Under the pieces are notes generated by a model that worked only from the letters and a program-made list of their open reading frames with translations, ran no database searches and was not told the origin of the DNA. Shown here one piece after another: positions 647 through 57,814 of a DNA stretch of 61,613 bases (position 1 is its first letter; each line of letters opens with the position of its first letter). The DNA comes from a virus (lineage: Duplodnaviria > Caudoviricetes), in IMG/VR virus record IMGVR_UViG_3300032305_001973, positions 1 through 61,613 of that record; one strand, given 5' to 3'. The translations under genes were made by a program, and so were the position numbers.

Positions 647-1786
647 TCAAACCTCAGACCAGTCAACCCGAACCGCCGAGTGCAGCGTCCCATCGGCGAT
701 AGCACGGGCAGCGGTGCCGGGGTCCATGGTGGTGAGGGTTGCGGTAAGGGCAGTCACAAGGCCATCCCGGCGCTGCTGCTTGGCCTCCTCAGCTTTGGCA
801 GCCGCCTCCCTCAGTTGCGCCTCCATCTCGGCTTGCTGCTTGACGCGAGCCTCTTCCCGAGCGGCTGCCTCCTCAGCCCGGCGCTCCGCCTCTTCCTGCG
901 CAAGGCGGGCCGCCTCTACCTGGGCCAGGGCCTGGGCTTCGCGGGCGGCGATTGCTTCCCGTTCCTTGCGTGCCTGCTCCTCAGTAGCAAGACGCTGGCG
1001 CTCGGTTTCAGCTTCACGGGCCAGGCGATCGGCCTCCACTGCCTCTCGTTGAAGCTGCGCGATGCGGTCGGCCTCCTCGCGGGCCGCCTTCTCGGCGCGT
1101 AGAGCCTCCAGCTCTATGCGCTCCGCTTCCTGGGCAGCCAGGGTGTCGTGCAGGATCTGCAGCCGCTCTAGGGCCTCAGCGCAACGGTTGGCGCCAGCCT
1201 CGCTGAACTCCTCCAGCGTGGTGGGGTCGATCGTGCCCAGCTCTGCCAAGCGGGCGGAAGCGTCAAGGGCGGTTTCAACCCCTTCGGTAAGCGCAGCAAT
1301 GCGATCCAGGACAGCCCGGTGCGCTTCGATGCGGGCCTCTTCCCGAGCCTCAATCGCCTTGATGGCCGTTTCATGCGGCTCGATCAGGCCCTGAACGGCT
1401 GCTTCCAGCGTCTTGGCGGTTTCGTCAACCGTCTTGCCGCGCTGCAGGTGAACCGCCTTGGCGTCCTTCCGGGCGCGTTCGATCTTGCCCTTGAGCTGAC
1501 GCAGCTCGTAAACCCAGGAGCGAGCCTGCTTGTTGTCCCACTTGTCGTCGTAGTCAAAAACCTTGCCGGGGGCATCTCCCTCGGCGATGGCGATGTCGCA
1601 GGCGATGGCTTCCCATCGGCTGATCGCCTGCGCTTCGGCTGCCGGAACGATGGCGGCCTGGGGGGCGGCGGGGGCTTCCGTGGCGGCTGGGGCCTCGGTG
1701 GGCAGCACCTCTGCGGTGACGGCTGGGGGTGCTGCGGTGGCGGCCTTAGCGGTTTTGGCTCTGGCCTTGGTGGAGGTGGCGGTCAT
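647..1786 (-). CDS. Coiled-coil phage protein of unknown function
   Basis: Long ORF, likely start MTATSTK. Ala/Pro-rich N-terminus followed by Glu/Ala/Arg-rich helical heptads. Confidence 0.75.
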   Translation of the reverse strand: MTATSTKARAKTAKAATAAPPAVTAEVLPTEAPAATEAPAAPQAAIVPAAEAQAISRWEAIACDIAIAEGDAPGKVFDYDDKWDNKQARSWVYELRQLKGKIERARKDAKAVHLQRGKTVDETAKTLEAAVQGLIEPHETAIKAIEAREEARIEAHRAVLDRIAALTEGVETALDASARLAELGTIDPTTLEEFSEAGANRCAEALERLQILHDTLAAQEAERIELEALRAEKAAREEADRIAQLQREAVEADRLAREAETERQRLATEEQARKEREAIAAREAQALAQVEAARLAQEEAERRAEEAAAREEARVKQQAEMEAQLREAAAKAEEAKQQRRDGLVTALTATLTTMDPGTAARAIADGTLHSAVRVDWSEV

Positions 1787-1878
1787 GTGGTGGTGATCGT
1801 TTCGGAACGACCTACGTACGATACCATTATGAAACCGCAACGGCTTAGACCAGCGGCCATTCATCACGAAACACCACC

Positions 1879-2514
1879 ATGGCGACCAGCACCAAGGCCC
1901 CCGAGGAGGCCATCAGTATCAAGGCGCCGGATTTCCGGTTCCTGGAGATCAACATCAAGGGCACTTCGCCTTTGGTGGTCAACCGGTTCAGCGCCAAGGC
2001 CATCGAGATGATGCGGGCCACACAGGAAGCGGGCAGCACCGCCAAGGCAAAGAAGGTGCGCGAACCGAAAGATTTCGATGCCTTGTTTGAGAACGCCAAA
2101 CACGTCTCAAACGACGGCTGGGAGGGGATCCACGCTGCCGCCTTCCGCAATGGCGCCATCAGCGCCTGCCGGGCCGTTGGCTACAAGATGACCCACGCAA
2201 AGCTCGCGTTCTGCGTGCTGCAGGATGGCTTCGACCGGGTAGATGGTGTCCCGCTGGTGCGCCTTTCCGAGGGAGTAGCTGAGCAGTGGGTGGCCCCAAC
2301 CCGGAACGCTACGGGCGTGGCTGATCTGCGCTGCCGCCCGATGTATCGGGAATGGGCTGCCGTGTTGCGCATCCGGTATGACGCAGGGATGCTCAGCTCC
2401 AGCGATGTGGTGAACCTGATCAGCCGCGTGGGGCTCCAGGTCGGCATTGGCGAAGGGCGCCCCGATAGCAAGGCCAGTGCAGGCTTAGGCTTTGGCCTCT
2501 TTGAAATTATCTGA
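1879..2514 (+). CDS. Stand-alone Cas7/RAMP-like (RRM-fold) protein, locus 1
   Basis: N-terminal strand INIKGTSPL, the helix motif IHAAAFRNGAISA, RPMYREW, and a C-terminal Gly-rich loop VGIGEGRP...GFGLF. This order matches Cas7/Csm3-group RAMPs. No other cas genes nearby. Confidence 0.75.
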   Translation: MATSTKAPEEAISIKAPDFRFLEINIKGTSPLVVNRFSAKAIEMMRATQEAGSTAKAKKVREPKDFDALFENAKHVSNDGWEGIHAAAFRNGAISACRAVGYKMTHAKLAFCVLQDGFDRVDGVPLVRLSEGVAEQWVAPTRNATGVADLRCRPMYREWAAVLRIRYDAGMLSSSDVVNLISRVGLQVGIGEGRPDSKASAGLGFGLFEII

Positions 2515-2528
2515 CAATCGGATTACGT

Positions 2529-3490
2529 GGGCCATGGTTGCGTCTGCTGCCATGGCCTGGGCTAGGCAACGAGCGAAGTGGCAAGGGTTCGCAGGTATGG
2601 TGCGGAAGGCGTGTCCGGGGCTCGCAAGGTTGACGCGGCAGGCATGGCCCGGTCAGGTCGGAACGGCCAAGCCGGGAGGGCGTGGCAGGCACGGAATGGC
2701 AGGGGAGGTCAACCATGGTCGGGCCGGGAACGGCAGGCATGGCTTCGAGGGGCTTGGCGAGATCTGGACTGGAAGGGCACGGCAGGCATGGCTTCGGAAG
2801 GCACGGCCAGGCCAGTTCTGGCAGGCAAGGCGTGGTCAAGCGTGGAAGGTCAAGCACGGCTGGCTAGGCGAGATGGGCGATGCGGAGCGAGGTAAGGCAC
2901 GGCACGGCTGGCTAGGTGTGGTCGGGCTAGGGCAAGGCACGGCTGGCAAGGCCTCGTGGGCACCACTGGCGGGGCATGGCAGGCGAGGTAACAAGGGCAT
3001 GGCTGGGTCTGGTGTGGCAGGGTGCTGCAGGCATCGCTAGGTGCGGAAGGACAGGTTCGGCAGGCAAGGCAGTGGTGGCAGGGCCAGGACCGGACTGGCA
3101 GGCGTGGCAGCGACGGCAGGATCAGGCTGGGAACGGCAGGCACGGTGTGGCGAGGTCAGGAGCGATCGAGGCACGGCATCGGACGGCAGGCATGGCCAGG
3201 AAGGCAGGGATCGGCAGGCAAGGAAAGGCGTGACCTGGACAGGCGTGGCTGGCAAGGCGAGATCTGGCGCGGAACGTCTGGTGAGGCACGGCAGGCATGG
3301 CACGGTCTGGATGGGTAGGGCACGGCAGGACTGGCTAGGAAGGTCTGGCGGTGTACGCCGTCGCAGGCTCGGCGCGGCCCGGCAAAGCGCGGCATGGAAG
3401 GGCACGGCAGGCAAGGCAAGGAACGATCGAGGATCGGTCGGGCGTGGCGCTGCTGGCCTCGCTTGTTGGCGCAAGGCACCGCACGATGCG
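2529..3490 (+). repeat. About 1 kb pentamer-periodic GGY-NN array (about 20 units separated by a 4-nt GGCA/GGCT); putative guide-RNA array
   Basis: Example: GGCA|GGCAT GGCAC GGTCT GGATG GGTAG GGCAC GGCA|. It starts about 15 nt after the RAMP stop. Overlapping ORFs in all frames are low-complexity G/R/A/W artefacts. Confidence 0.9.
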
Positions 3491-3526
3491 GCTCAGCTTG
3501 CGTGTTGCGGTTGCCAAATGGCAGCA

Positions 3527-3556
3527 GAATGGGGGTCCGAATGGGCCTCCTCATTC
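3527..3556 (+). other. Stem-loop closing array 1
   Basis: GAATG-GGGGTCC-GAAT-GGGCCTCCT-CATTC is an imperfect inverted repeat just before the next ATG. Confidence 0.5.
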
Positions 3557-3571
3557 CTATCCCCTGAACAC

Positions 3572-4129
3572 ATGGATTTTATCAAGGCTGAACCTGAGTA
3601 CGTCTTCCGAATTGAGGATGGCGAGGAAGCGATGGGCGTCGATGCCCAGACCGCTGGCAGCGAGCTAGACCGCATCCGGCGGCGTGATGGCACGATCCGC
3701 CCTGCTGCGGTGGTTGACGAGGCCAGACCGGAGGAGGCACCGCTGCATCCGGCGTTTGAGTGGCGCGATCCGGTGGCGGCTGAGCAATGGCGCGAGCATC
3801 AGGCCAGCACGCTGATCAAGGTGGTGCGGGTGGTGCCTGCTGCTCCGCAAGAGCCTCGCGTGGCATCGGTGCGGCCTGTCACCCAGGCGGCTGCCCCGGT
3901 GGTGGAGCGCTTCGACCCGATGGCCAAGGAGGTGCTTGAGGCCGTGGGCCTGGTGGTGGAGGCCCGCCGCAAGGTTGAGGAGCTGAAACTGCGCACCCAG
4001 CGGATGGGCGATCGAAAATCGATGGCCGTGCTGGGAGTGGCGTTCAAGATGCTCGATGAAGCCCACGAAGCGCTCGCAAACTGTCAGGTCAGCAGCACAT
4101 GGGAGCGAGAACTACAGCGGGCCCGGTGA
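3572..4129 (+). CDS. Partner protein of RAMP locus 1 (AVVDEAR-PLHPAFEW-AAEQWR motif)
   Basis: The real start is MDFIKAEPE at 3572; the upstream part of track ORF 3041..4129 is array sequence. Normal amino-acid composition, followed by a terminator. Confidence 0.8.
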   Translation: MDFIKAEPEYVFRIEDGEEAMGVDAQTAGSELDRIRRRDGTIRPAAVVDEARPEEAPLHPAFEWRDPVAAEQWREHQASTLIKVVRVVPAAPQEPRVASVRPVTQAAAPVVERFDPMAKEVLEAVGLVVEARRKVEELKLRTQRMGDRKSMAVLGVAFKMLDEAHEALANCQVSSTWERELQRAR

Positions 4130-4146
4130 GACTCGTGCAGAGATCG

Positions 4147-4172
4147 AGGGGGCCGTGGTTGGCCCCTTTTTT
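4147..4172 (+). terminator. Intrinsic terminator ending locus 1
   Basis: AGGGGGCC-GTGGTT-GGCCCCT followed by a T-run. Confidence 0.8.
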
Positions 4173-4198
4173 ATGAGCGGCTCAACTGTGACCGGGGT

Positions 4199-4474
4199 TC
4201 AGAGGTGATCGCTAGCCCGCTCCATCCACGCCTCGGCGTATGCCTGCACCTCGGCCAGCTTGCGGAACATCTCAGCCCGCTCGTCTCGGGCCTGCTGCCA
4301 GGCGGCATCACCCTGGGGGTAGAAGTCGCGGGCGTTGCAGGTGGCGGCCTGAAGTGCATCGCTGGCCCTGTCGATGGCCTGGTAGACGGCGTGGTACTCA
4401 TCGGCTAGGGACTTGGCCCCGGTGCCGTTCAGGTGGATCGTGGGCAGGGCGTAGGCGGTGGTGGTGGCGGGCAT
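4199..4474 (-). CDS. Small early phage protein
   Basis: 91-aa ORF (PTIHLNGTG...RDFYPQG) preceded by the ACC-rich leader cassette. Confidence 0.75.
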   Translation of the reverse strand: MPATTTAYALPTIHLNGTGAKSLADEYHAVYQAIDRASDALQAATCNARDFYPQGDAAWQQARDERAEMFRKLAEVQAYAEAWMERASDHL

Positions 4475-4522
4475 GGGTCGGAGGCGGTGGGGTGGTGGTG
4501 TGGTTGCCGGATGAGGCAGTGG

Positions 4523-10177: not shown

Positions 10178-11200
10178 ATGTCAGCTGAGTACATCGGCCA
10201 ACGGCCGCCGCATACTTCCCTGCCGAATTGGCTGCGAGGTAGAGCCACACCTCTGGAGCTTGCGACCCTATGGGCACTCCAGAGCCACTACCCCAACATC
10301 CACCCTTCGCTCAGCCTGCTGGCCAAGGAGGCATGTATCTCCCGGCGATCGGTCTGCACGGTTCTCACGGGCATGGAGCGTAAGGGCTGGCTGGTTCGTG
10401 ATCAGGCCTTTGACGGCTCCGGCCGCAAGACCTCAAACCGCTATCGGCTGACGATCTGGGATCTTCGCTGGTTCTCGATTGATGATGCAGGAGATGCACT
10501 AGCGCAGGAGATGCACCATCGGATTAGCGCAGGAGCTGCACCATCCCTAGTGCAGGAGGTGCGCATACCTAGTGCAGGAGGTGCGCATAAAGAAGATCAA
10601 TCTAAGAAGAACAATCTAAGTAAAACCTTAGAACCCCCCTTGCCCCCCAGTGGGGGGAACGCACGCGAGGGGCAGGGCGAGCTGCTCACGGTCGAAGCCA
10701 TGCCCGTTGATGCTGCGCTTTCCAAAAGCCCAGAACCGGCTAAGGTTCCAGAACCACCACCGCAGACCATGGCCCTGACCAGGCCAGCGCGGAAGCCACG
10801 CTTCCAGCCATCACACGACCTGATCCCTGCCGAGCTATTGCCCGTCCATCCCGAGATCCTGGGTTTCTGGGCCGTAAAAGCCGGAGCCCGCACCCAGCAA
10901 GCCTGGGATGACCTGATCAAACAGCTCGGCCTGATCCAGCAGGATTCACAGGGCGGAACCGAGACGGTCCGCACCCAGCTTCAGACCGGCATTGACCGGG
11001 CCCCGATCAAGCCGTGGCTGTCGGTCAGCTACGGCAACTGGCGGAAGTTCGGGATGCAGCAGGGCACCACCTGCAACCGCCGCCCAACCCCTGAGGAAAA
11101 CGCAGCCGCTGCCGTTGCGTTTATCCAAGCCCGCGATGCCCGCAAGGCTGCCGCTGCTGCCGCCTCTCAGCAAACCCTGCTCGCTGAGGTGGTTGCGTGA
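10178..11200 (+). CDS. Replication initiator with N-terminal winged HTH (HTH_36-like)
   Basis: HPSLSLLAKEACISRRSVCTVLTGMERKGWL...SNRYRL; carries internal iterons. Confidence 0.8.
   Translation: MSAEYIGQRPPHTSLPNWLRGRATPLELATLWALQSHYPNIHPSLSLLAKEACISRRSVCTVLTGMERKGWLVRDQAFDGSGRKTSNRYRLTIWDLRWFSIDDAGDALAQEMHHRISAGAAPSLVQEVRIPSAGGAHKEDQSKKNNLSKTLEPPLPPSGGNAREGQGELLTVEAMPVDAALSKSPEPAKVPEPPPQTMALTRPARKPRFQPSHDLIPAELLPVHPEILGFWAVKAGARTQQAWDDLIKQLGLIQQDSQGGTETVRTQLQTGIDRAPIKPWLSVSYGNWRKFGMQQGTTCNRRPTPEENAAAAVAFIQARDARKAAAAAASQQTLLAEVVA
10486..10630 (+). repeat. Putative replication origin: five iterons plus an A-rich tract inside the initiator gene
   Basis: Five copies of (TAG)YGCAGGAGNTGCRC, then CAATCTAAG twice in an A-rich segment. 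Confidence 0.75.
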
Positions 11201-14496: not shown

Positions 14497-14714
14497 AAGC
14501 ATCCGAAGCTCGTAAGTTGATCGGGAAAGCTGTCAGCTATAAAAATCGATTTAGTTCATTTCCGCCGCGGGTTGGCATTATTGAGGAACTGCGCGGGCGC
14601 AACGTGCGCATTGACAGCAACTGGCTATGGCTACCTGATTTTTGGATTGAGCCGATTCCGGTTCTTTCAGAAAACATCCTTGCCTTAGAACTTGACCTAG
14701 GCCCCACCCCCTAG
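14493..14714 (+). CDS. Hypothetical protein
   Basis: GTG start overlapping the xis stop. Confidence 0.5.
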   Translation: MKASEARKLIGKAVSYKNRFSSFPPRVGIIEELRGRNVRIDSNWLWLPDFWIEPIPVLSENILALELDLGPTP

Positions 14715-15704
14715 CGCCCTCTCCGCAGCCTCGGCTATCTGGAATGGCTGAATATGCGCCCGGTAAGTCTTTGAGTGTTGCAAAGGGCTATGCCCCATCA
14801 ACCTTGCGGCGGTGTAAATATCCAGCCGACTACCACCCTCTCGCCACAACCTCCCGCCATAGGCGTGACGCAGTGAATACGGACGCCACGGCAGCCCCTG
14901 CCGCCTCAGCTCTTTGTTCAACCATTTGCTCACCGCCTCGGGGCGATCGGCGCTTCCCTCCAGCCGAATCCGCAACCGACGATCCCGCAACCCGAACCGC
15001 TCCACCCACTCGCGGGGCAGGGGCACCACCGTGCGGAACCCGGTCTTCGTCCCGTCCGCCACCTGGCAGTAATCCTGCTCGATCAGCACCGCCCCCTCGA
15101 TCTCATGGGGCCGCAGGCCGTAGGTGGCCATCAAACCCCAGTACCAGCGCACCGGATCGGGCGCCCCCTCCACCCACGCGATGATCTCGGCATCGCTCGG
15201 CACCGCCACCAACTCCGCTTGGCTGTAGGTGGGCAGTGGCACCTCTGGGAACGGCACCGCCACCAACCGCGACAGGTGCCGCAGGAGGTAGAACAGTTCC
15301 TTGTAGGAGCACGTGTTGCGGTCGTAGCGCTCCAGGGCCTTGGCCATGCTGGCGGTCGTGCAGGCGCCCCCCTGTGGAACCTGCCGCAGGCGCCCGAGGT
15401 AGTTCACCTGCCAGGTTGATTCCCCCGTGCGCCCGAGAACCACCCGCGCCCGGTAGAGCTTGGCGATGGCCTCGCGCCAGGTGATCGCTCCCGAGGCCTG
15501 ATCCAGCCAGTACCCCCACTCAAACGTCCCCGTGCTGAGCTGTCGCTCCAGTGTCTGGAGCTGCTTCAAGGCGGTGCGGCGGTTGATCGGGGTGTCGTCC
15601 AGCCTCAGGGCGATGCGGGATTGCTGCAGCCCTGGGGCCCCGTCACGCCTAGGCAGCTTGGCCAGCAGGTAGAGCCGCCCACGCTGGGTGTTGATCGAGG
15701 CCAT
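14697..15704 (-). CDS. int: Tyrosine integrase
   Basis: YGLRPHE (R), TKTG (K), YSLRHAY (HxxR-like), LMGHS...Y; likely start MASINTQRG. Confidence 0.92.
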   Translation of the reverse strand: MASINTQRGRLYLLAKLPRRDGAPGLQQSRIALRLDDTPINRRTALKQLQTLERQLSTGTFEWGYWLDQASGAITWREAIAKLYRARVVLGRTGESTWQVNYLGRLRQVPQGGACTTASMAKALERYDRNTCSYKELFYLLRHLSRLVAVPFPEVPLPTYSQAELVAVPSDAEIIAWVEGAPDPVRWYWGLMATYGLRPHEIEGAVLIEQDYCQVADGTKTGFRTVVPLPREWVERFGLRDRRLRIRLEGSADRPEAVSKWLNKELRRQGLPWRPYSLRHAYGGRLWREGGSRLDIYTAARLMGHSPLQHSKTYRAHIQPFQIAEAAERALGGGA

Positions 15705-16009
15705 GGGGAATACGACGCGGCGAAAAAGCAGAGCTGCACCCGACGCACGGGCCGTGCATAACCTACGCTCTGCCAGTCCCTTCCTGTCCCTTCCTGTCAC
15801 CTAAGGCAGCACCGCTGCACCCGGCTAGATCGCCCTCTGTGCCTGCACTTTGCCCCAAGCGGCAGGCCAGAACTGCAAGATACAAATCCTCGTCAATCTC
15901 GCGGATGTCGTATTCCAAACCTAGTCACCGCAGGGGATCTCGGCGGTGGTGCATAAACTGCCCATCACCACCACGACCCGGAAACCTTCAGAACCACAGC
16001 GGTAGCCCG

Positions 16010-36667: not shown

Positions 36668-36710
36668 GTTGCCCTTTACAAACGGCTTACAGATGGAATA
36701 GAATGCAAAA
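36668..36710 (+). promoter_or_regulatory. Putative promoter of RAMP locus 2
   Basis: TTTACA-18 nt-TAGAAT, ending about 12 nt before the first pentamer; homologous to the erf promoter at 8727-8769. Confidence 0.65.
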
Positions 36711-36715
36711 GTCAA

Positions 36716-36929
36716 TGCTACGCGGCGTTCCGCGAGGCCACGCCACGCAACCCTCTGCTACTGGGCCCTTCGGGGCCCACAGCCCACCACAAAGCCACTC
36801 GGCTCTCTGGTGGGCTTATGGCTCATCACCGCCGCGCTGCACCTCAGAGCCGCGCTCCGCGCCTTGTCGCCGCGCCGCGCCCTGCATCGCACTGCCCCGC
36901 AAACCACAGGGGCCTCGTTATCGGGGCCC
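36716..36929 (+). repeat. CGC-NN pentamer array, two units with hairpins, upstream of RAMP gene 2; putative guide RNAs
   Basis: TGCTA CGCGG CGTTC CGCGA GGCCA CGCCA CGCAA CCCTC TGCTA + GGGCCC-TTCG-GGGCCC + AGCCCACCA...TGGTGGGCT, then about 15 pentamers + ACAGGGGCCTCGTTATCGGGGCCC. Confidence 0.85.
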
Positions 36930-36957
36930 ACTCAACCATCCTAAGAGGATTCAATTA

Positions 36958-37587
36958 ATGGCATTTCGCCGCTTTGAGCTAACGCTTGAGGGCACACGCC
37001 CGCTTATCTGCAGTAACCCCTGCACCGTTGATCCACTAGGCCCCCACGCCGAAGCGATCAAGTATTTCACCGGCCTTAAGAAAAACCGCAATGAACACGC
37101 CCTGAGGAGACTGCATTGGCTGTTCTCCGGCTACTGGGGAACCGAGGGCACATTTACCTACGGGCCCAGCTTGGATGGTGATTCCAAGTTCAGTGGCTTT
37201 GCTAAGCCACTCATGCCTGCTCAGAACCTGCAGCGCTGCATCCGCGATGGTGCCACGGCATGGAAGCTGGGCAAGGACACCAAGCGGGCGATCGTTGTTG
37301 AGGTTGACGCACCGCTCGCTTACGACGGTCCCACCGATGCCGAGCTGATGTACGACGACCCGCGCTTTGCCTCAATCGCTCCTACAGGCAGGGGCACTAT
37401 GGCAGTGCGGGTAAGGCTTCCCCAGTGGAGCGCTACCTATCGGCTCCTAGTGAACGACGAGATCATTGATCCCACCACGCTGGCAAAGATCTTGGATCGT
37501 GCTGGCATTGCCGAAGGCCTCGGCACTTGGCGCCCCATGCACGGTCGCTTTCAGGTGCTGCAGCTAGAAGAGATTGAGGTGGCCTGA
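36958..37587 (+). CDS. Stand-alone Cas7/RAMP-like protein, locus 2
   Basis: Start MAFRRFELTLEGTRPL (AAGAGGA upstream), MPAQNLQRCIRDGA, RVRLPQW, Gly loop AGIAEGLGTWRPMHGRF; same motif order as 1879..2514. Confidence 0.75.
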   Translation: MAFRRFELTLEGTRPLICSNPCTVDPLGPHAEAIKYFTGLKKNRNEHALRRLHWLFSGYWGTEGTFTYGPSLDGDSKFSGFAKPLMPAQNLQRCIRDGATAWKLGKDTKRAIVVEVDAPLAYDGPTDAELMYDDPRFASIAPTGRGTMAVRVRLPQWSATYRLLVNDEIIDPTTLAKILDRAGIAEGLGTWRPMHGRFQVLQLEEIEVA

Positions 37588-38099
37588 TGAAAGACCCCAA
37601 GATTGCTTCAATCGACGCTTACCGCCTTTACAAGGGCCAGACCATTTCGGCCGATGTTGTCTGGGAGCACTTCGCAAATCGACGACCCGACACCGTGGCC
37701 AGTTGGGTCATGGAGCACGGGGACGAGGCGCTGGCTAGGGCTGCTCGAATGCCTCAGGTTCTGCTTCAGGTTCGTGGCTGGCTAGACCGTGATCGCAGCA
37801 AGGCGGAGCTTCCGCCGCTGGTGATGAACACGGCCGGCGGCGCCATCAACGTTCTCACCGATGACAAGGCCTCAACCTACCTGAACGATCAGGCGTTCCA
37901 AGGGTTGCGCCGTCACCAGCGGGCATCCACTCGGCTTGTTGCCGCCGTAGATGAATCCAAGCTGACCGGTGCCGCACGTCGTGAGCATCAGAACAGGATC
38001 AACGTTCACAGCTTCATTGCTGCGTCTGCTCAAGGTGCCCAGCGCCAGCTTCGGCTGCTGAAGCAGAACGGGAAAAGGGCGCCACAGCTGGAGGGCTGA
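37587..38099 (+). CDS. Partner protein of RAMP locus 2
   Basis: 170 aa, TGATG-coupled to the RAMP gene, with arrays on both sides of the pair. Confidence 0.8.
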   Translation: MKDPKIASIDAYRLYKGQTISADVVWEHFANRRPDTVASWVMEHGDEALARAARMPQVLLQVRGWLDRDRSKAELPPLVMNTAGGAINVLTDDKASTYLNDQAFQGLRRHQRASTRLVAAVDESKLTGAARREHQNRINVHSFIAASAQGAQRQLRLLKQNGKRAPQLEG

Positions 38100-38136
38100 T
38101 GACCTGGGCATCCGCAAGGTGTAAGTCCTAGGTCGG

Positions 38137-38473
38137 CGCTACTCCCCGCACAACCGCGCTACGCCCTGCATAACAGCGCTACGCCCCGCACAGGGGGCCT
38201 CATCCGAGGCCCCACACCCCACCACCGAGCCCAATGCTCTCTGGTGGGCTGATGCCTACCACTGCGCCCCTCTCTGCGCAGCACCGCAACGCAATCCCGC
38301 TTAGCGCAGCGCGCCGCATCGCACAGGGGGTCCAGCAATGGGCCCCACACCTCACCGCTGAGCCATTGGTTCTCCGGTGGGCTGTTGTCCACCACCCAGC
38401 CCCGCTACGTAGCGCTGCGCCTCGCGCCGCGACGCACCGCTCCGCACTGCACAGGGGCCCCTTTTTGGGGCCC
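38137..38473 (+). repeat. CGC-NN pentamer array, three units each closed by an ACAGGGG hairpin; putative guide RNAs
   Basis: Example: AGCCC CGCTA CGTAG CGCTG CGCCT CGCGC CGCGA CGCAC CGCTC CGCAC TGCAC AGGGGCCCC-TTTTT-GGGGCCC. Linkers read ACACCYCACC...GAGCC...CTCYGGTGGGCT. Confidence 0.88.
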
Positions 38474-38527
38474 ACCTCCATCATTCGCTGACGCCCCGGA
38501 AATCTGCCGCAACACTGCCCGCCCGCC

Positions 38528-50433: not shown

Positions 50434-52004
50434 CGGAAACCGGGGATAGCGGACCGCCGCCGGGGTGGTGGGGTCTCCGGCTGCTGCAGCAGTGCGGTGG
50501 AGCCGTGGCCGTAGGTGGCGGTGCTCACCCGCATGGGGCCGGTGCTCGCGCAGAAGTTCAGTGCCTGCGTGGTTTCATCCACAAGGTCATCAAAGGTGCC
50601 CGATGGGAAGGCCATCACCTGTCCCACGTACTCGCTTAGCCATGGGGAATGACGCGGCAGGAACACACGGCCCTGGCGGAACATCACTGAAGCGGCCTCA
50701 GCCCGTGCCACCTTGCCGCCGAGGGGGTTGACGGCATGGACGGCATAGGCCGCCTCGCGCTTGAGTGTGTCGATGATCGCTGGGCCGTTAGCCTTGTCTT
50801 CGATAAGCAGCTCATTGAATTTCCACACCGGCTGCAGGCGGCGCAGCATGTCGAGAGTGTCGGTAAAGCCCATGCGGCGGTTCACCTGATCGACCCGGAA
50901 CATGCCCTCCTGCGTCTGCAGCCATAGGCCGATACCCACCATGTCGGACCCTGCCGAATCCTTAAAGGTGGCGTCCACTGATGCCAGTTTGCGGATGCCG
51001 TATTCGGGCAGCACTACATCACCTTCCTCCCCTTTCTGGCCAGGCAGCACGTAGAACCGCAGGGTGTCGCGGCTGAAGATGGTTCCGGCGCTTTCGGTTG
51101 GGGCCTGCTGGTAGATCGCCTCCCAGTCACGGCGGGGCGTATTGGCCCGCTTGCGCTCGATCCATGCCTCATCAAAGCGGGTCGGGTCAAGGGCCTGGCC
51201 AGGCTCGCGGTCGTCCTGCTCACGGGTGACCGTGCGCGGCAGGGGTTTGATCGCGTTGGCAGGGGTGGCCTCGATCGGCATTGAAACCACATGCCAGGGC
51301 TCGCATTGGGCCGTGAGCCCCTCCTTCTCCAGTTCCTCGTTCTTGGTCAGCAGGTAACCGATCAGGTCATTGCTGTGCCAGCGGGTGTGAACAATCACCA
51401 CGGCATTGCCCGGTTCTTCCCGTGTGCTCAGCACCGAATCCCACCATGAATGAACCTGACGGCGCCAGGCGGCCGAGTCGGCCATCTCGCGGGATTTGAT
51501 CGGGTCATCCACCACGATCAGATCGCCAGGGTTGCCGGTGCCTCCTCCCACGCCAGCAGTCCAGAGGCCACCGATGCCGCTGGTTCCCCACTTCTTCACG
51601 CCACCTGAGGTAGGCGAGAGGGCGCCACCGGAAGCGGTGAAGTAGTCACGAGCGTCTTGGCTGAACCCCTCGGCGAGGGTGGCGGTATGGCAGCCGATGC
51701 CGACTGAGCGGTTCGGGTAGCGGCGCAGGAAGTAACCAGGCAGGAAGATCGAAAAGATGGTGCTTTTGTAATGGCGCGGTGGAAGCTCCACCATCAGGCG
51801 GCGGATCTCCCCATCAGCGACACGCTGACCAAGGGCGACTAGGCGGTGGGTGTGGTCGCTCCAGGGGAAGCTGGGGCAGACCGAACAGATGTACTCCTTA
51901 AAGGTGCCGGCGATGGGGGCCTGGGTCTTACTGGCGTTGGCATCGCGCTCCAGCTCCAGCACGGCGAGGCGCGAGGAGGGGTCAGGGGCGCGGATGGGGG
52001 TCAT
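50430..52004 (-). CDS. terL: Terminase large subunit
   Basis: ELPPRHYKS (Walker A), IVVDDP (Walker B), SVDATFK, IEDKANG, FPSGTFDDLVD. Confidence 0.95.
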   Translation of the reverse strand: MTPIRAPDPSSRLAVLELERDANASKTQAPIAGTFKEYICSVCPSFPWSDHTHRLVALGQRVADGEIRRLMVELPPRHYKSTIFSIFLPGYFLRRYPNRSVGIGCHTATLAEGFSQDARDYFTASGGALSPTSGGVKKWGTSGIGGLWTAGVGGGTGNPGDLIVVDDPIKSREMADSAAWRRQVHSWWDSVLSTREEPGNAVVIVHTRWHSNDLIGYLLTKNEELEKEGLTAQCEPWHVVSMPIEATPANAIKPLPRTVTREQDDREPGQALDPTRFDEAWIERKRANTPRRDWEAIYQQAPTESAGTIFSRDTLRFYVLPGQKGEEGDVVLPEYGIRKLASVDATFKDSAGSDMVGIGLWLQTQEGMFRVDQVNRRMGFTDTLDMLRRLQPVWKFNELLIEDKANGPAIIDTLKREAAYAVHAVNPLGGKVARAEAASVMFRQGRVFLPRHSPWLSEYVGQVMAFPSGTFDDLVDETTQALNFCASTGPMRVSTATYGHGSTALLQQPETPPPRRRSAIPGFR

Positions 52005-52963
52005 GCGGCCACCCCGGCAAACACGTCGGGCTGATGCCCAGCCGCCTGGGCCCTGCTGATCCGCTGCTTGGCGATGGCGTGGTAGTCCGGGTTGATCTCG
52101 CTGCCTTCAAAGTCGCGGCCAAGCAACAGCGCTTGCTCAGCGACCGTGCCGCTTCCTGTGAACGGGTCATAGACCACGCCACCCCTAGGACAACCGGCCA
52201 GGATGCACGGCTTTACCAAGTCGGGCGGCATGACAGCAAAATGCGCCCCGTGAAATGGCTTTGTTGCAACGGTCCAGACGTCGCGGCGGTTGCGTGTGTC
52301 GCCTGCGCCTACGTCTTTCATCTGCCTGTCGTCTCTATTTGCAGGTCCGCCCTCGCTATCAAGAAAGTGCCCCTGCCCCCTAAAGGCGCTTTTTCCGCCC
52401 TTGCCCTTTGGCGCCCATGGCTCAGTTGAGCCGCGACCGCCACTCATTGGGGCCCCGCGCTCGCCTCCTTGCCGCCCCGCAAACCCATTGCCTGCAGGCT
52501 CACTGCTGACTGCCGGCTCTTTGATCGCCTCAAAGTCGTAGTAATACCGCGCTGATTTCGATAACAGAAACACGTACTCATGCGCCTTGGTGCAGCGATC
52601 CGTCACGCTCTCAGGCATCGGGTTAGGTTTGTGCCAGATAATGTCTTGCCGCAGATACCAGCCGTCAGCCTGCAACGCGAATGCAACGCGCCAAGGGATG
52701 CCGGCAAGGCTTTTGTTTGCGTAGCTGTCTCCCAGGTTCAACCACAGCGTTCCGTCATCCCGCAGCACCCGCCGCAGATCTTGAAACACTCCCGCCAAGC
52801 GGGCCACGTACTCTTCCGGTGTGGCCTCCAGGCCGATCTGGCCATCGTGGCCATAGTCTCGCAGCCCCCAGTACGGCGGGCTGGTGACGCAGCAATTCAC
52901 CGACGCATCCGGCATGGTGCGAAGCACGTCGAGGCAGTCGCCAAGGTGCAGGGTGCTGCTCAT
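52001..52963 (-). CDS. N4-cytosine/N6-adenine DNA methyltransferase (beta class)
   Basis: TSPPYWGLRDY before DPFTGSGT; IIWHKPNPMPES. Confidence 0.92.
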   Translation of the reverse strand: MSSTLHLGDCLDVLRTMPDASVNCCVTSPPYWGLRDYGHDGQIGLEATPEEYVARLAGVFQDLRRVLRDDGTLWLNLGDSYANKSLAGIPWRVAFALQADGWYLRQDIIWHKPNPMPESVTDRCTKAHEYVFLLSKSARYYYDFEAIKEPAVSSEPAGNGFAGRQGGERGAPMSGGRGSTEPWAPKGKGGKSAFRGQGHFLDSEGGPANRDDRQMKDVGAGDTRNRRDVWTVATKPFHGAHFAVMPPDLVKPCILAGCPRGGVVYDPFTGSGTVAEQALLLGRDFEGSEINPDYHAIAKQRISRAQAAGHQPDVFAGVAA

Positions 52964-53196
52964 CCCACCGGCCCCACGCGATACACCTCCCAATAGGCGC
53001 CGGGCCCTGGGTGGTCCGTAACCTCAATCAACTGATGCTCACGCAATGCCGCAATCCGCCTACTCACGGTGGACTGCGAGCACCGCCACCGAGTCATCAT
53101 CTCAGCGGTAGTAATCTCCGGGACAATGCCTGCCCGGATGCGCATATCCAGCCATTCGGCCAGCTCCAGGCAATCAAGCAGGGTGCCTTCACTCAC
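52960..53196 (-). CDS. Small winged-HTH protein
   Basis: TTAEMMTRWRCSQSTVSRRIAALREHQLI; start uncertain. Confidence 0.55.
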   Translation of the reverse strand: MSEGTLLDCLELAEWLDMRIRAGIVPEITTAEMMTRWRCSQSTVSRRIAALREHQLIEVTDHPGPGAYWEVYRVGPVG

Positions 53197-56181: not shown

Positions 56182-57086
56182 AATCCCATCTCTTGCTCAT
56201 CTTGCGCCTGCTCAGCCATAAGCAGCTGCCATTGTTCCCCTTCAGGGGTTAATCGCCAACCATGCGAAGTAAAGTCAATGGCTTTTTCAAGGCGATCAAG
56301 TATCGCAAAACGCACCGAAGAGCTATGGTCGTAAGCGGACATTTTGCTGTCAGGAACCGTTGCCTCTCCCCCTGCCGGCTGGGTGGGTTGGGTGTCCCGC
56401 TCCTCCCCTGGATACGGTTCGAGCACTTCCAGCCGTGCGCAGGTCACTGCGGTCTGAGCCAGAACATTGCCCCACGGAATCCCGGCGTTTTCGGTAATTG
56501 ACATCAACACCAGCAGCACATCGGCAGCCTCGCTGAGCGGATCGCCGTACTTGCCCCGGATGGCCTCGGCCAGCTCTGAACATTCCAAATGCAAGCAGGC
56601 AATCCGACAAGTCCAATGAAGAGACCAGTCGCGCTTCCTGCACATGGCCAGAACGCGGGCGGGTAGCGTGTCTGGGGGCTGGGCGGCGCCGCGCTGGTGG
56701 CCGAGGTTGTAGATGGCGCGGATTTGCGCTTTGAGCACTTCGACAGGAGTCAACGCTTTGTCGTAATCCCTGCAATTGAGAATCGCCACCTTTGCGGCAT
56801 CCGCATAGCAGTCAGCCAGTTCCTGATCCGTGACCACCGGAGCGCCCTCGGGCGTGGGGGCCGTCAGCTCAACGCTGCCGGGGATCGGCCGCTGCTCCAG
56901 CGCTTCCAGGCGTCGCACGATTGCCTCATTGCAAAATAAGCTGCTCTGGGATTGCTCAGTGGCGTCAGCCTCCAGCGCCTCCAACCGCTCCAGCAGGTGC
57001 AGTAGCGCCCGTGAGTAGGTCGAGCCATCGACAAGAACGGATTGACGCAACCAGGCCAAGACCTCGGGAGATAGCGGTTGAGTCAC
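56178..57086 (-). CDS. Mosaic protein with a MazG-like NTP pyrophosphohydrolase segment
   Basis: LHLECSELAEAIRGK...LSEAADVL (ExxE...ExxD). Confidence 0.6.
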   Translation of the reverse strand: MTQPLSPEVLAWLRQSVLVDGSTYSRALLHLLERLEALEADATEQSQSSLFCNEAIVRRLEALEQRPIPGSVELTAPTPEGAPVVTDQELADCYADAAKVAILNCRDYDKALTPVEVLKAQIRAIYNLGHQRGAAQPPDTLPARVLAMCRKRDWSLHWTCRIACLHLECSELAEAIRGKYGDPLSEAADVLLVLMSITENAGIPWGNVLAQTAVTCARLEVLEPYPGEERDTQPTQPAGGEATVPDSKMSAYDHSSSVRFAILDRLEKAIDFTSHGWRLTPEGEQWQLLMAEQAQDEQEMGL

Positions 57087-57814
57087 GCCTTCACCTCATG
57101 CCGCGCCAGAACCGAACGCAGAAACTCGGTAGCGGCTTCGTTGCTGTCATAGAAATGGCTGTGTGCCTCGACCCCCCCGAGCATCAAGCCGGCGACACCC
57201 GGGCCAACTGCGGCCTGCAGTAGCCGGCCAACCTCGCCGGCCTGGTGAATCAACCAGCCGCCCAGGCAGTGCCTGGTATCGCAGGTGTGCCAGGTGTGCA
57301 TTTCCAGCGCACCCTCCTGGAGCGCGGCAGCCGCGGCGGCCCTGAGGCGTTGAGGAGCGTCGGCTGCGATAGCGATGCCACTTGCCCCTTTGAGGTCAGC
57401 CCCTTCGAGGTTGGCCCCGCCGAGGCTGGCCTCTTCGAGGCTGGCCCCTTTGAGGCTGGCCCCGTTGAGGCTGGCCCCTTCGAGGTTGGCCCCGTTGAGG
57501 CTGGCCCCGTCGAGATCGGCCTCTTCGAGGTTGGCCCCGCCGAGGTTGGCCCTGTTGAGGCTGGCCCCGTCGAGGCTGGCCCCTTTGAGGCTGGCCCCGT
57601 TGAGGCTGGCCCCTTCGAGGCTGGCCCCGTCGAGGCTGGCCCAGTCGAGGCTGGCCCCTTCGAGGTTGGCCCCGTCGAGGTTGGCCCTGTTGAGGCTGGC
57701 GCCGTCGAGGATGGCCCCTTTGAGGCTGGCGCGTTGGCCGCTCGGATCACCGGCCAACCAGCGAGCGTGGCTGGCCAGGATTTCGGGCAGGTTGCGTGTT
57801 GGTGATTCAGGCAT
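57083..57814 (-). CDS. Pentapeptide-repeat protein
   Basis: More than 20 A(S/N/D)LxG repeats (15-nt DNA repeat at about 57385-57730); C-terminal WHTCDTRHCLGGW. Confidence 0.9.
   Translation of the reverse strand: MPESPTRNLPEILASHARWLAGDPSGQRASLKGAILDGASLNRANLDGANLEGASLDWASLDGASLEGASLNGASLKGASLDGASLNRANLGGANLEEADLDGASLNGANLEGASLNGASLKGASLEEASLGGANLEGADLKGASGIAIAADAPQRLRAAAAAALQEGALEMHTWHTCDTRHCLGGWLIHQAGEVGRLLQAAVGPGVAGLMLGGVEAHSHFYDSNEAATEFLRSVLARHEVKA

What the first reader, a model, noticed from the sequence alone, without database searches (positions are those of the whole stretch)
1879..4171. Non-CRISPR RNA-guided candidate, locus 1: lone Cas7/RAMP-like gene + about 1 kb GGY-NN pentamer array + partner gene
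Seen: a + strand operon inserted among minus-strand early genes. It consists of a 211-aa protein with RAMP hallmarks (GTSPL strand, C-terminal GIGEGRP..GFG Gly loop), then a non-coding array of fixed GG(C/T) plus two variable bases, a hairpin, a 185-aa partner gene and a terminator. No cas1/2/3/5/6/10 and no CRISPR repeat-spacer structure are present. Established: Cas7-group RAMPs oligomerise along guide RNA with a fixed nucleotide period. Inference: each subunit grips one GGY, and the NN dinucleotides together spell a gapped target, giving a phage-encoded programmable nucleic-acid-binding system, perhaps aimed at competing phages or at transcription. From memory this resembles the architecture called VIPR (Vipr protein + GGY/NN RNAs); I cannot verify that here.
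Basis: partly seen in the sequence, partly recalled or inferred. Interest (0 to 1): 0.96.

Follow-up and report, generated by a model that had tools for sequence, protein, structure and literature searches.

The report
VIPR guide-RNA system in a cyanophage
This stretch of a temperate cyanobacterial phage encodes a VIPR system, a recently described phage relative of CRISPR in which a small Cas7-like protein reads a long array of GGY-plus-two-base units as guide RNAs, so it is a new example of a known kind rather than a new kind of system.

Summary
Window 1879-4172 carries, on the + strand, a 211-aa gene, a 1057-nt G-rich spacer with strong 5-nt GGY-NN phasing, a 185-aa gene and a hairpin followed by a T-run. 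The phasing gives 46 units in exact runs against 1.6 +/- 2.2 in shuffles.

The 211-aa protein folds with high confidence as a Cas7/Csm3-like RAMP. Its only relative among solved structures is "SUSP1 Vipr protein" (profile E 1.8e-6).

In 45 of 46 related phage loci the same array lies between the same two genes. A cyanophage and a mycobacteriophage show the same gene pair and array.

The array is tail-less and built of modules of 5k+4 nt that end in GGCAC-SGCA. Each module shifts the register by -1, which fits the "staggered arrays" named in the VIPR preprint.

Not shown here: transcription, processing, binding or any natural target. One-base-skip searches did no better than control skip rules.

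The phage carries a second, SUSP1-like VIPR locus at about 36.7-38.5 kb.

The parts
1787..1878 (+). Divergent intergenic region upstream of vipr; presumed promoter and 5' leader. It contains a 23-nt site (1826-1848) that matches one array module under the one-base-skip rule at 13 of 16 NN positions.
   Evidence: Sequence. The consensus sigma-70 scan found nothing. Match. It is a post hoc lead and is not significant genome-wide.
1879..2514 (+). vipr gene: 211-aa Vipr-family RAMP protein (RRM core, beta-hairpin thumb, C-terminal glycine loop GIGEGRP...GLGFG).
   Evidence: phrog_4652 E 3.9e-16. PDB phmmer gave a sole hit, SUSP1 Vipr 36pp_D, E 0.063; with a 59-sequence profile E 1.8e-6. AlphaFold2 pLDDT 92.5, pTM 0.85. 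Foldseek top hits are Csm3/Cas7.
2529..2558 (+). Hairpin directly after the vipr stop codon. Close relatives carry a small hydrophobic ORF in this position instead.
   Evidence: RNA fold -21.7 kcal/mol, z -2.74; alignment of relatives.
2557..3454 (+). Candidate vrRNA array of GGY-NN pentamers. About 21 modules are delimited by a 4-nt unit (SGCA or GGCT) that slips the register by -1; the junction consensus is GGCAC-SGCA|GG.
   Evidence: Viterbi parse. Shuffle tests and junction counts. The same punctuation occurs in relatives: 55 strict junctions in 36 arrays against 1 outside them, and spacings mostly 5k+4.
3455..3571 (+). Most conserved part of the spacer. Phasing is a weak mix of GGC and CGC units, followed by two hairpins (3510-3525, 3527-3556). 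The second hairpin resembles the hairpin tails of the locus-2 units. It may be the end of the array or of the precursor, or a terminal vrRNA.
   Evidence: Alignment of six arrays; fold -25.5 kcal/mol, z -2.94; motif comparison.
3572..4129 (+). Partner (vap-like) gene, 185 aa. It has a conserved N-terminal domain (invariant ..PLHPAFEW..) and a C-terminal helical hairpin; its fold and function are not identified.
   Evidence: phrog_15946 E 1.9e-19. Pfam and NCBIfam gave nothing. A homologue lies next to vipr in all 45 IMG/VR loci that have enough downstream DNA, and in Cy-LDV1 and Quico. Model pLDDT 72.3; no significant fold hit.
4146..4172 (+). Stem-loop (GGGGCC/GGCCCC core) followed by a T-run; likely the intrinsic terminator of the operon.
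   Evidence: RNA fold -17.5 kcal/mol, z -2.54. Not called by the consensus scan.

Best explanation
Window 1787-4172 is a VIPR (Viral Interference Programmable Repeat) operon of a temperate, siphovirus-like phage whose host is probably a freshwater picocyanobacterium.

Shown here:
- The first gene encodes a Vipr-family RAMP protein.
- The spacer is a GGY-NN pentamer array that travels with this gene family.
- A conserved accessory gene follows the array.

Inferred from the published SUSP1 system:
- The operon is transcribed rightward from the 1787-1878 region.
- The array RNA is cut or delimited into vrRNAs.
- Vipr protomers bind one per pentamer and sequester each GGY.
- The exposed NN dinucleotides pair with double-stranded DNA that reads NNxNNx..., which silences transcription of a competing mobile element.

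Specific to this clade, from sequence only:
- The guides have no structured tail.
- Each module is k pentamers plus a terminal 4-nt unit (GGCAC-SGCA). Its last pentamer therefore shares one base with the first pentamer of the next module, and neighbouring guides lie in different 5-nt registers.
- I infer that this slip marks the guide boundaries.
For: 1. Fold. AlphaFold2 with 59 homologues gave pLDDT 92.5 and pTM 0.85. Foldseek against the PDB gave 42 hits at E <= 1e-3, and the listed ones are Cas7-family subunits of type III (Csm and Cmr) and type VII effector complexes, best 9ash_F at E 1.8e-5 with TM about 0.4-0.5.

2. Family. phmmer against all PDB chains returned a single hit at E < 10, 'SUSP1 Vipr protein' 36pp_D, E 0.063. 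The family profile gives E 1.8e-6 over the thumb-to-G-loop segment.

3. Contact residues. By my reading of that alignment, SUSP1 residues that contact GGY (paper 720927, section 5) map as R138 to R153, R179 to R194 and D177 to E192. R153 is kept in at least 90% of the 59 sequences and R194 is invariant.

4. Array. Its phasing lies far beyond shuffles.

5. Co-occurrence. Of 55 IMG/VR loci that hold the vipr gene body (L056 and L057, short gene-end fragments, were dropped), 45 have the partner gene downstream; the other 10 are cut off within 647 nt. Of 46 vipr-partner gaps, 45 hold at least 8 GGY at 5-nt spacing, against 0-5 in a 600-nt upstream control. Several of these loci are duplicates of one another.

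6. Distant hosts. Cyanophage Cy-LDV1 (53% identical) and Mycobacterium phage Quico (36%) have the same gene pair and GGCNN arrays; in Quico the array lies upstream.

7. Module punctuation. The strict junction GGCAC[CG]GCAGG occurs at 2.43 per kb inside 36 arrays against 0.004 per kb outside. Of 240 junction spacings, 118 are 4 mod 5, with modes at 44 and 49 nt. This fits the legend of Fig. S18 of 720920, 'staggered' arrays with 1-nt overlaps.

8. Phage context. Integrase, O-like replication initiator, tape measure, portal and large terminase are present. No Cas1.

9. Weak hint of expression. Contigs from three lake-water metatranscriptome runs cover relatives' versions of vipr, parts of the array and the partner gene. 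One 480-nt contig runs from the 3' part of the array into the partner gene.
Against: 1. No natural target was found. In the phage's own genome, in 366 kb of related loci and in five complete related genomes, the one-base-skip rule scored no better than 0-, 2- or 3-base skips. Two exact scans of IMG/VR gave 0 hits and 1 hit. The single hit lies in an AT-rich, unrelated phage with the skipped base at codon position 1, so it is probably chance.

2. The window's array is ragged. Only 9 in-phase runs have 6 or more units, the longest has 10, and many GGY are degenerate. Only 4 of its 16 junction spacings are 4 mod 5.

3. Among the five closest relatives, substitutions are not enriched at NN positions: 66 of 299 NN columns vary against 101 of 470 GGY columns, Fisher p 0.86. 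The 'hypervariable NN' signature is therefore absent at this evolutionary distance.

4. SUSP1 W178, which stacks on the second G, aligns to an invariant glycine (G193) in this clade.

5. Transcription, processing and RNA binding were not shown. The metatranscriptome contigs come from relatives, carry no strand information and could be DNA carry-over.

6. The partner protein has no recognisable DNA-binding fold.

7. Which of the seven published VIPR types this is could not be checked, because the supplementary tables are closed.
Confidence: 0.85

Rival explanations
1. The vipr gene is real, but the array in this phage lineage is decaying or does something other than guide. Examples: a sponge or decoy RNA that soaks up a rival phage's Vipr, or a leftover of slipped duplications with few working guides.
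For: In-phase runs are short, with many extra register slips compared with cleaner relatives such as L038, L047 and L048. No targets rose above the controls. No excess NN variability. The third VIPR preprint reports decoy or redirecting standalone vrRNAs (abstract only).
Against: The ragged stretches are themselves conserved at 80-95% identity across six phages. For example, 2641-2687 is nearly identical in all six. vipr and the partner gene are intact and conserved. [quoted passage not shown]
Confidence: 0.08
2. The G-rich periodic tract works at the DNA level, for example through G-quadruplex or other structure-forming DNA, protein-binding iterons or a recombination hot spot, and its position next to the RAMP gene is only a linkage.
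For: G is 42% on one strand. Block duplications and deletions separate relatives.
Against: The same GGY-NN unit is what the solved SUSP1 Vipr binds as RNA. The array keeps one orientation relative to vipr in the 46 loci that hold both genes, 45 of them with the phased signal, and the unit recurs beside vipr homologues in phages of unrelated hosts. Runs of G3 or longer, as needed for canonical quadruplexes, are not the repeating feature.
Confidence: 0.03
3. It is an orphan CRISPR Cas7/Csm3 subunit, a remnant or hijacked part of a type III or type I system, rather than a member of the VIPR family.
For: The best structural matches are Csm3/Cas7 chains.
Against: The Foldseek library predates the Vipr entries (released up to 2026-04-08). 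By sequence the only PDB relative is SUSP1 Vipr. No Cas1 and no CRISPR array. The period is 5 nt, not 6 nt. Sequence identity to the Csm3 hits is 8-15%.
Confidence: 0.02
4. The spacer is protein-coding (ORFs 2492-3040 and 3041-4129 run through it).
For: Long open frames exist in the G-rich tract. Some gene callers extended the partner protein into it, giving homologues of 271 and 285 aa.
Against: Period-3 power is 0.31 against period-5 power of 4.18. Of 67 indels between the window and five relatives, 41 are not multiples of 3. Most homologues of the partner protein are 180-209 aa, as in the window (185 aa), which supports the start at ATG 3572.
Confidence: 0.01

Closest known systems
VIPR type II of Escherichia phage SUSP1 (bioRxiv 10.64898/2026.04.26.720920 and .720927; PDB 36pp)
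   Same: A small stand-alone RAMP protein, GGY-NN pentamer RNA units, a two-gene operon with an accessory gene, carried by a phage. The thumb arginine and G-loop arginine are conserved (R153, R194).
   Different: Sequence similarity is only marginal (E 0.063 for the single sequence). W178 is replaced by glycine. The array lies between vipr and the accessory gene. There are about 21 short modules (6-10 units) rather than 4 vrRNAs of 9-16 units. There is no pseudoknot tail after each unit; a 9-nt GGCAC-SGCA junction with a -1 register slip takes its place. The accessory protein could not be compared with vap1 because no sequence was at hand.
'Staggered vrRNA arrays' of the same preprint (Fig. 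S18; legend only seen)
   Same: The legend says individual vrRNAs derive from positions that overlap by 1 nt, so the end of one marks the start of the next. Modules of 5k+4 nt here and in relatives give exactly a 1-nt overlap of the last and first pentamers.
   Different: The figure and the type assignment are not held, so identity of architecture is inferred. The preprint states that the other two alternative architectures, not this one, were confirmed by small-RNA sequencing.
Unannotated homologous loci: Cyanophage Cy-LDV1 g34-g33 (BK059895.1) and Mycobacterium phage Quico gp57-gp58 (NC_028751.1)
   Same: A vipr homologue (53% and 36% identity), a partner homologue (40% over 171 aa; 43% over 67 aa) and GGCNN arrays with GGCA|GG slips.
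   Different: The arrays are short (about 210-270 nt). In Quico the array lies upstream of vipr. Both genes are annotated as hypothetical proteins.
CRISPR type III Csm3 / type VII Cas7 backbone subunits
   Same: RRM core, thumb and glycine-loop fold; they oligomerise along a guide RNA with a fixed period.
   Different: No other cas genes and no repeat-spacer array. The period is 5 nt with three bases sequestered, rather than 6 nt with one base flipped. It is phage-borne, and the published function is silencing of double-stranded DNA.

Membership tests
VIPR | Vipr protein with a minimal RAMP fold (RRM core, thumb, glycine-rich loop) | tested here: met
   AlphaFold2 pLDDT 92.5. Foldseek PDB: 42 hits at E <= 1e-3, the top ones Csm3/Cas7. 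C-terminal loop GIGEGRP...GLGFG, with G185, G193, R194 and G206 invariant in 59 sequences.
VIPR | Sequence relationship to an experimentally characterised Vipr | tested here: met
   SUSP1 Vipr 36pp_D is the only PDB chain at E < 10 (E 0.063). With the profile, E 1.8e-6.
VIPR | Residues that read GGY in SUSP1 (H17, R138, D177, W178, R179) | tested here: inconclusive
   By the HMMER alignments, as I read them: R138 to R153, R179 to R194, D177 to E192 (conservative), W178 to G193 (lost), H17 to N35 (weak alignment).
VIPR | Adjacent tandem YNNGG/GGYNN repeats (the preprint's calling rule: at least four units) | tested here: met
   13 exact runs of 3-6 units, and in-phase runs of up to 10 units, in 2557-3454. 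Far above shuffles.
VIPR | Array co-occurs with the protein across homologues | tested here: met
   45 of 46 loci (some are duplicates), plus Cy-LDV1 and Quico.
VIPR | Minimal locus with an accessory (vap) gene and no cas genes or CRISPR array | tested here: met
   The partner gene is syntenic in 45 of 55 loci, and the other 10 are truncated. No Cas1. No CRISPR-like repeats. Whether the partner is one of vap1-6 could not be tested because the supplements are closed.
VIPR | Carried by a virus or provirus | tested here: met
   The record is a 61.6-kb virus contig with CheckV completeness 100. Integrase, tape measure, portal and terminase are present.
VIPR | vrRNAs are expressed and co-purify with Vipr | not testable with these tools
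   Only lake metatranscriptome contigs of relatives cover parts of the array. They give no strand, no RNA ends and no binding information.
VIPR | Guides match natural targets under the one-base-skip (xNN) rule | tested here: inconclusive
   Skip 1 did no better than skips 0, 2 and 3 in the phage's own genome, in related loci and in five complete related genomes. IMG/VR exact scans gave 0 hits and 1 probably chance hit. The databases that could be searched with mismatches were small.
VIPR type II (SUSP1-like) | Each vrRNA ends in a conserved structured 3' tail | tested here: not met
   Modules are joined directly by GGCAC-SGCA, with no tail between them. Only the end of the whole array has hairpins. 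Locus 1 is therefore not filed under type II.
CRISPR-Cas (Cas7 as part of an effector) | Neighbouring cas genes and a repeat-spacer array | tested here: not met

The most novel reading that the evidence does not exclude
This reading has three parts, none excluded by the evidence.

1. The phage runs two orthogonal VIPR systems, each with its own fixed triplet. Locus 1 is tail-less with GGY-NN units and a G-loop GEGRP. Locus 2 is SUSP1-like with CGY-NN units, hairpin tails and a G-loop GTWRP. Each Vipr would then load only its own guides.

2. In locus 1 the 4-nt slip unit is a tail-free punctuation mark. It sets guide length by throwing the next module out of register.

3. One module (2785-2823) is aimed at the conserved promoter or leader of the vipr operon of sibling phages. 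The match is 14 of 16 NN in seven related loci, with no other match of up to 3 mismatches in the two of these whose whole genomes were searched, and 13 of 16 in this phage, which differs at one NN base. That would mean either self-limiting autoregulation or VIPR-against-VIPR conflict with partial escape.
Probability: 0.15. Interest if true: 0.7.

Novelty: new member of a known kind. Interest (0 to 1): 0.45.

Why it matters

This locus is a clean natural specimen of the architecture that the discovery preprint lists but did not confirm by small-RNA sequencing: staggered, tail-less arrays. It sits in a complete temperate phage of freshwater picocyanobacteria, and dozens of related arrays are available for comparison.

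It offers three direct tests:
- How guide boundaries are set without a structured tail.
- Whether a Vipr that lacks the G-stacking tryptophan still reads GGY.
- Whether two VIPR systems in one genome are insulated from each other.

It also shows that abundant 'hypothetical' gene pairs belong to this family: phrog_4652 with phrog_15946, Cy-LDV1 g34/g33 and cluster-F mycobacteriophage gp57/gp58.

It does not change the known picture of what VIPR is.

Tried and rejected
Family searches that found nothing useful. Pfam and NCBIfam gave nothing for either protein. Rfam gave no match in 1500-4500 at E <= 1, so there are no hammerhead-interspersed units. The consensus promoter and terminator scan returned nothing. 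The window has no close relative in the INPHARED phage set by megablast.

Partner protein. The AlphaFold2 model has moderate confidence (pLDDT 72.3). Foldseek against the PDB gave 0 hits at E <= 1e-3; the best were helical hairpins such as UvsY and Rop. Foldseek against BFVD gave one unnamed hit. The PDB profile search gave only chance-level hits. The ESM Atlas returned only viral hypothetical clusters. I therefore give no function for the partner protein.

Target search.
- Own genome: best one-base-skip scores equal those of the other skip rules.
- 366 kb of related loci: the same result.
- Five complete related genomes fetched whole: the same result. A 15 of 18 match under skip 3 is as extreme as the best skip-1 hit.
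- IMG/VR exact patterns for the two longest guides: 0 hits, and 1 hit (L061) judged to be chance.

Self-promoter idea. Inside the 92-nt upstream region, 0 of 500 permuted guide sets reach the observed match, but I chose that region after seeing the hit. It is not replicated in divergent relatives scanned with their own guides: skip 1 is best in 12 of 29 loci, with similar medians. I keep it only as a lead.

NN hypervariability among close relatives was not seen.

Metatranscriptome runs X1-X3 each hold 5-9% of the sampled words, and the laid contigs are relatives at 88-99% identity. Parts without cover say nothing, and I make no claim about expression level.

The supplementary tables of the VIPR preprints (type assignments, lists of loci) are closed. 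They may already list this clade and give its type and vap class.


Full report
**What is in the sequence**

The window is a whole virus record of 61,613 bp with CheckV completeness 100.

On the + strand, between genes that run on the - strand, lie the following features:
- An ORF at 1879-2514 (211 aa).
- A 1057-nt spacer at 2515-3571.
- An ORF at 3572-4129 (185 aa).
- A GC-rich stem-loop with a T-run at 4146-4172.

The - strand neighbours are 647-1867, 4199-4474 and, further on, RusA, SSB and Erf genes.

The spacer is 42% G on the + strand. Period-5 spectral power is 4.18; every other period from 2 to 12 is at most 1.37, and period 3 is 0.31.

Exact runs of three or more GGYNN units:
- 13 of the 21 on the + strand of the whole window lie in 2641-3450.
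- They hold 46 units, against 1.6 +/- 2.2 (maximum 13) in 1000 dinucleotide shuffles.
- GGY-to-GGY distances of 5 nt occur 58 times against 7.3 +/- 2.7 in 300 shuffles.

**The first protein is a Vipr**

Pfam and NCBIfam do not know the protein. PHROGs places it in phrog_4652, function unknown, E 3.9e-16.

Against every PDB chain sequence, the only hit at E < 10 is 'SUSP1 Vipr protein' (36pp_D), E 0.063. A profile of 59 homologues raises this to E 1.8e-6.

AlphaFold2 with that alignment gives pLDDT 92.5 and pTM 0.85. The model has a beta-alpha-beta core, a long beta-hairpin (134-156) and a C-terminal glycine loop. Foldseek against the PDB (library up to 8 April 2026, which lacks the Vipr entries) returns 42 hits at E <= 1e-3. 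The listed ones are Cas7-family backbone subunits of type III (Csm and Cmr) and type VII complexes, best E 1.8e-5, TM about 0.4-0.5, identity 8-15%.

The cryo-EM preprint names the SUSP1 residues that grip GGY (section 5). Reading the HMMER alignments:
- R138 (thumb) maps to R153.
- R179 maps to R194.
- D177 maps to E192.
- W178, which stacks on the second G, maps to G193, which is invariant in this clade.

The family is very large in metagenomes. There are 3606 proteins at E <= 1e-3 in the 90%-identity collection and 2483 clusters at 50% identity.

**The array travels with the gene**

A scan of IMG/VR gave 57 related loci. I dropped L056 and L057, which hold only short ends of the gene, before the counts below.
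- In 45 of the remaining 55, a homologue of the 185-aa partner lies downstream of vipr, at a distance of 261-1871 nt. The other 10 are cut off within 647 nt.
- In 45 of 46 vipr-partner gaps (45 IMG/VR loci plus Cy-LDV1) there are at least 8 GGY at 5-nt spacing. A 600-nt upstream control has 0-5. The exception is L021.
- Several loci are the same phage sampled twice, so the independent number is lower.

Named phages show the same arrangement:
- Cyanophage Cy-LDV1 (53% identity) has vipr g34, a GGCNN array of about 210 nt, and g33, which is 40% identical to the partner.
- Cluster-F Mycobacterium phage Quico (36% identity) has a GGCNN array of about 270 nt upstream of gp57, followed by gp58, which is related to the partner.

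One near-identical copy (94%) lies in a Synechococcaceae metagenome-assembled genome. Together with 61% G+C and lake-water sources, this points to a freshwater picocyanobacterial host. That host assignment is an inference.

**Architecture of the array**

A phase-tracking parse shows that the tract is not one run. It is about 40 in-phase runs of 2-10 units, separated mostly by -1 slips made by a 4-nt unit, typically ...GGCAC GGCA|GGCAT....
- GGCAGGCA occurs 11 times in the spacer, against 13 times on the + strand of the whole window.
- A GGY spacing of 4 nt is over-represented: 17 against 7.2 +/- 2.6.

Cleaner relatives (L038, L047, L048, L026) show the rule plainly: 7-10 GGCNN units, then GGCAC CGCA, then the next module.

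Across 36 arrays:
- The strict junction GGCAC[CG]GCAGG occurs 55 times (2.43 per kb), against once outside the arrays (0.004 per kb).
- 118 of 240 junction-to-junction spacings are 4 mod 5, with modes at 44 and 49 nt.
- 73 are 3 mod 5, meaning one extra slip inside the module.

A module of 5k+4 nt means that its last pentamer borrows the first G of the next module. That is a 1-nt overlap, as in the legend of Fig. S18 of the discovery preprint: 'staggered vrRNA arrays ... [quoted passage not shown] I saw only the legend.

The window's own array is among the ragged ones. Its 16 spacings are 47, 47, 48, 49, 39, 158, 81, 38, 18, 20, 50, 28, 77, 34, 38 and 44, and only 4 of them are 4 mod 5.

The last 117 nt (3455-3571) are the best conserved part. 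They lose clean GGY phasing and fold into two hairpins.

**Evolution of the array**

Five close relatives (Vipr 87-95% identical) have arrays 80-95% identical to the window's. The differences are mainly block insertions and deletions of 14-83 nt, including a 48-nt tandem duplication that the window alone carries.

Of 67 indels, 41 are not multiples of 3, which argues against translation.

Substitutions are not concentrated at NN: 66 of 299 NN columns vary, against 101 of 470 GGY columns, Fisher p 0.86. At this short distance the guides are simply inherited. At greater distance the NN content is unalignable while the GGY frame persists.

**Function: shown and inferred**

The published work shows the following for SUSP1 and P. 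fulva:
- vrRNAs co-purify with Vipr.
- One protomer binds one repeat.
- GGY is sequestered.
- NN pairs with double-stranded DNA while skipping every third base.
- Binding represses transcription.
- Natural targets are satellites and prophages.

Membership of this locus in that family is well supported. Its activity is inferred.

I looked for targets with all in-phase runs of 6 or more units, with these results:
- No excess under the one-base skip over 0-, 2- or 3-base skips in the phage's own genome. This agrees with the preprint's finding of no self-targeting.
- No excess in 366 kb of related loci.
- No excess in five complete related genomes.
- Exact scans of IMG/VR with the two longest guides gave 0 hits and 1 hit. 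The single hit is in an AT-rich phage with the skipped base at codon position 1, so I treat it as chance.

The searchable space with mismatches was small and the guides are short, so this result is inconclusive rather than negative.

Three lake metatranscriptome runs hold contigs of relatives that cover vipr, parts of the array and the partner gene. One contig bridges the 3' part of the array into the partner gene. This is only a weak hint of co-transcription.

**A lead, not a finding**

Module 2785-2823 has NN units AT TT AA AC CA CA CT AG. Under the one-base skip it matches 1826-1848, which lies 31-53 nt upstream of the vipr start, at 13 of 16 positions.

The same site matches at 14 of 16 in seven related loci. 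In the complete genomes of two of these relatives it is the only match with up to 3 mismatches, and the reversed-pattern controls gave 0.

Within the 92-nt upstream region, no permuted guide set out of 500 reaches this score. Three cautions apply:
- I chose the region after seeing the hit.
- Relatives that share both guide and site count as a single evolutionary event.
- Divergent loci scanned with their own guides show no such signal (skip 1 best in 12 of 29), and genome-wide the other skip rules reach similar extremes.

**The partner protein**

It belongs to phrog_15946 (E 1.9e-19). It has 129 homologues at E <= 1e-3 and an invariant motif around PLHPAFEW.

The structure model has moderate confidence: the N-terminal alpha/beta domain has pLDDT about 50-75, and the C-terminal helical hairpin is above 90. 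No significant structural or family match was found.

It is an accessory gene in the sense of the preprint's 'vap'. Whether it is one of vap1-6 cannot be told without the supplements.

**Second system in the same phage**

phrog_4652 hits the genome twice. The second gene, at 36961-37587, is much closer to SUSP1 Vipr (E 2.4e-12) and has the G-loop GLGTWRP. A 170-aa gene that is unrelated to the locus-1 partner follows it.

Five blocks flank this second gene, two upstream and three downstream. Their pentamers are phased on CGY/YGC rather than GGY, and each block ends in a hairpin of the form ACAGGGGCC...GGCCCC.

Non-canonical triplets in VIPR arrays have been reported (passages of 10.64898/2026.10.21.760802). 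Those passages did not name CGY.

Locus 2 is present in 2 of the 5 complete relatives I examined.

**Verdict**

It is a new member of a family published in 2026.

Its features of interest are the long, tail-less, register-slipping array, the loss of the G-stacking tryptophan, and the presence of a second VIPR system in the same genome.

Literature searches found four preprints that deal with VIPR and none that names this clade. The supplements, which I could not open, may do so.

Noticed in passing
window 36700-38480 (+): A second VIPR locus. The Vipr-like gene at 36961-37587 matches phrog_4652 at E 6.4e-27 and SUSP1 Vipr at E 2.4e-12, and has the G-loop GLGTWRP. A 170-aa partner at 37587-38099 is unrelated to the locus-1 partner. 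About five flanking units (roughly 36700-36790, 36800-36945, 38136-38215, 38240-38350, 38376-38480) have pentamers phased on CGY/YGC instead of GGY, and each ends in a GC hairpin. The locus sits on the opposite strand inside the tail-gene module and is present in 2 of 5 complete relatives.
   Followed up: partly
window 1826-1848: A site in the vipr upstream region matches array module 2785-2823 under the one-base-skip rule at 13 of 16 positions, and at 14 of 16 in seven related loci. In the two of these relatives whose whole genomes were searched it is the only match with up to 3 mismatches. It is post hoc and was not replicated in divergent loci.
   Followed up: yes
window 3455-3556: The conserved end of the spacer mixes GGC and CGC pentamers. 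Its hairpin (GGGGGTCC GAAT GGGCCTCC) resembles the tail hairpin of a locus-2 unit (GGGGGTCC AGCAAT GGGCCCC at about 38326). It could be a terminal vrRNA of the other kind, or simply a similar terminator.
   Followed up: partly
L004, L006, L052, L054 (between vipr and the array): Close relatives carry a small hydrophobic ORF of about 50 codons right after vipr. In the window and in L002 it is replaced by the hairpin at 2529-2558.
   Followed up: no
window 57399-57730 (ORF 57083-57814, - strand): A 15-nt tandem repeat with 22 copies, which from my own knowledge looks like a pentapeptide-repeat protein gene. It produces the only other strong period-5 signal in the window, and it also has period-3 signal.
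   Followed up: no
window 59947-60159 (ORF 59832-60521, - strand): A 12-nt tandem repeat with 17.8 copies at 91% match, inside an ORF.
   Followed up: no
window 10525-10589: A 22-nt direct repeat with 2.9 copies inside the O-like replication initiator gene (10178-11200). It looks like origin iterons, as in lambdoid phages (comparison from my own knowledge).
   Followed up: no
window 14697-15800 (-), 52001-52993 (-): An integrase, so the phage is probably temperate, and a DNA methyltransferase next to the large terminase gene.
   Followed up: no
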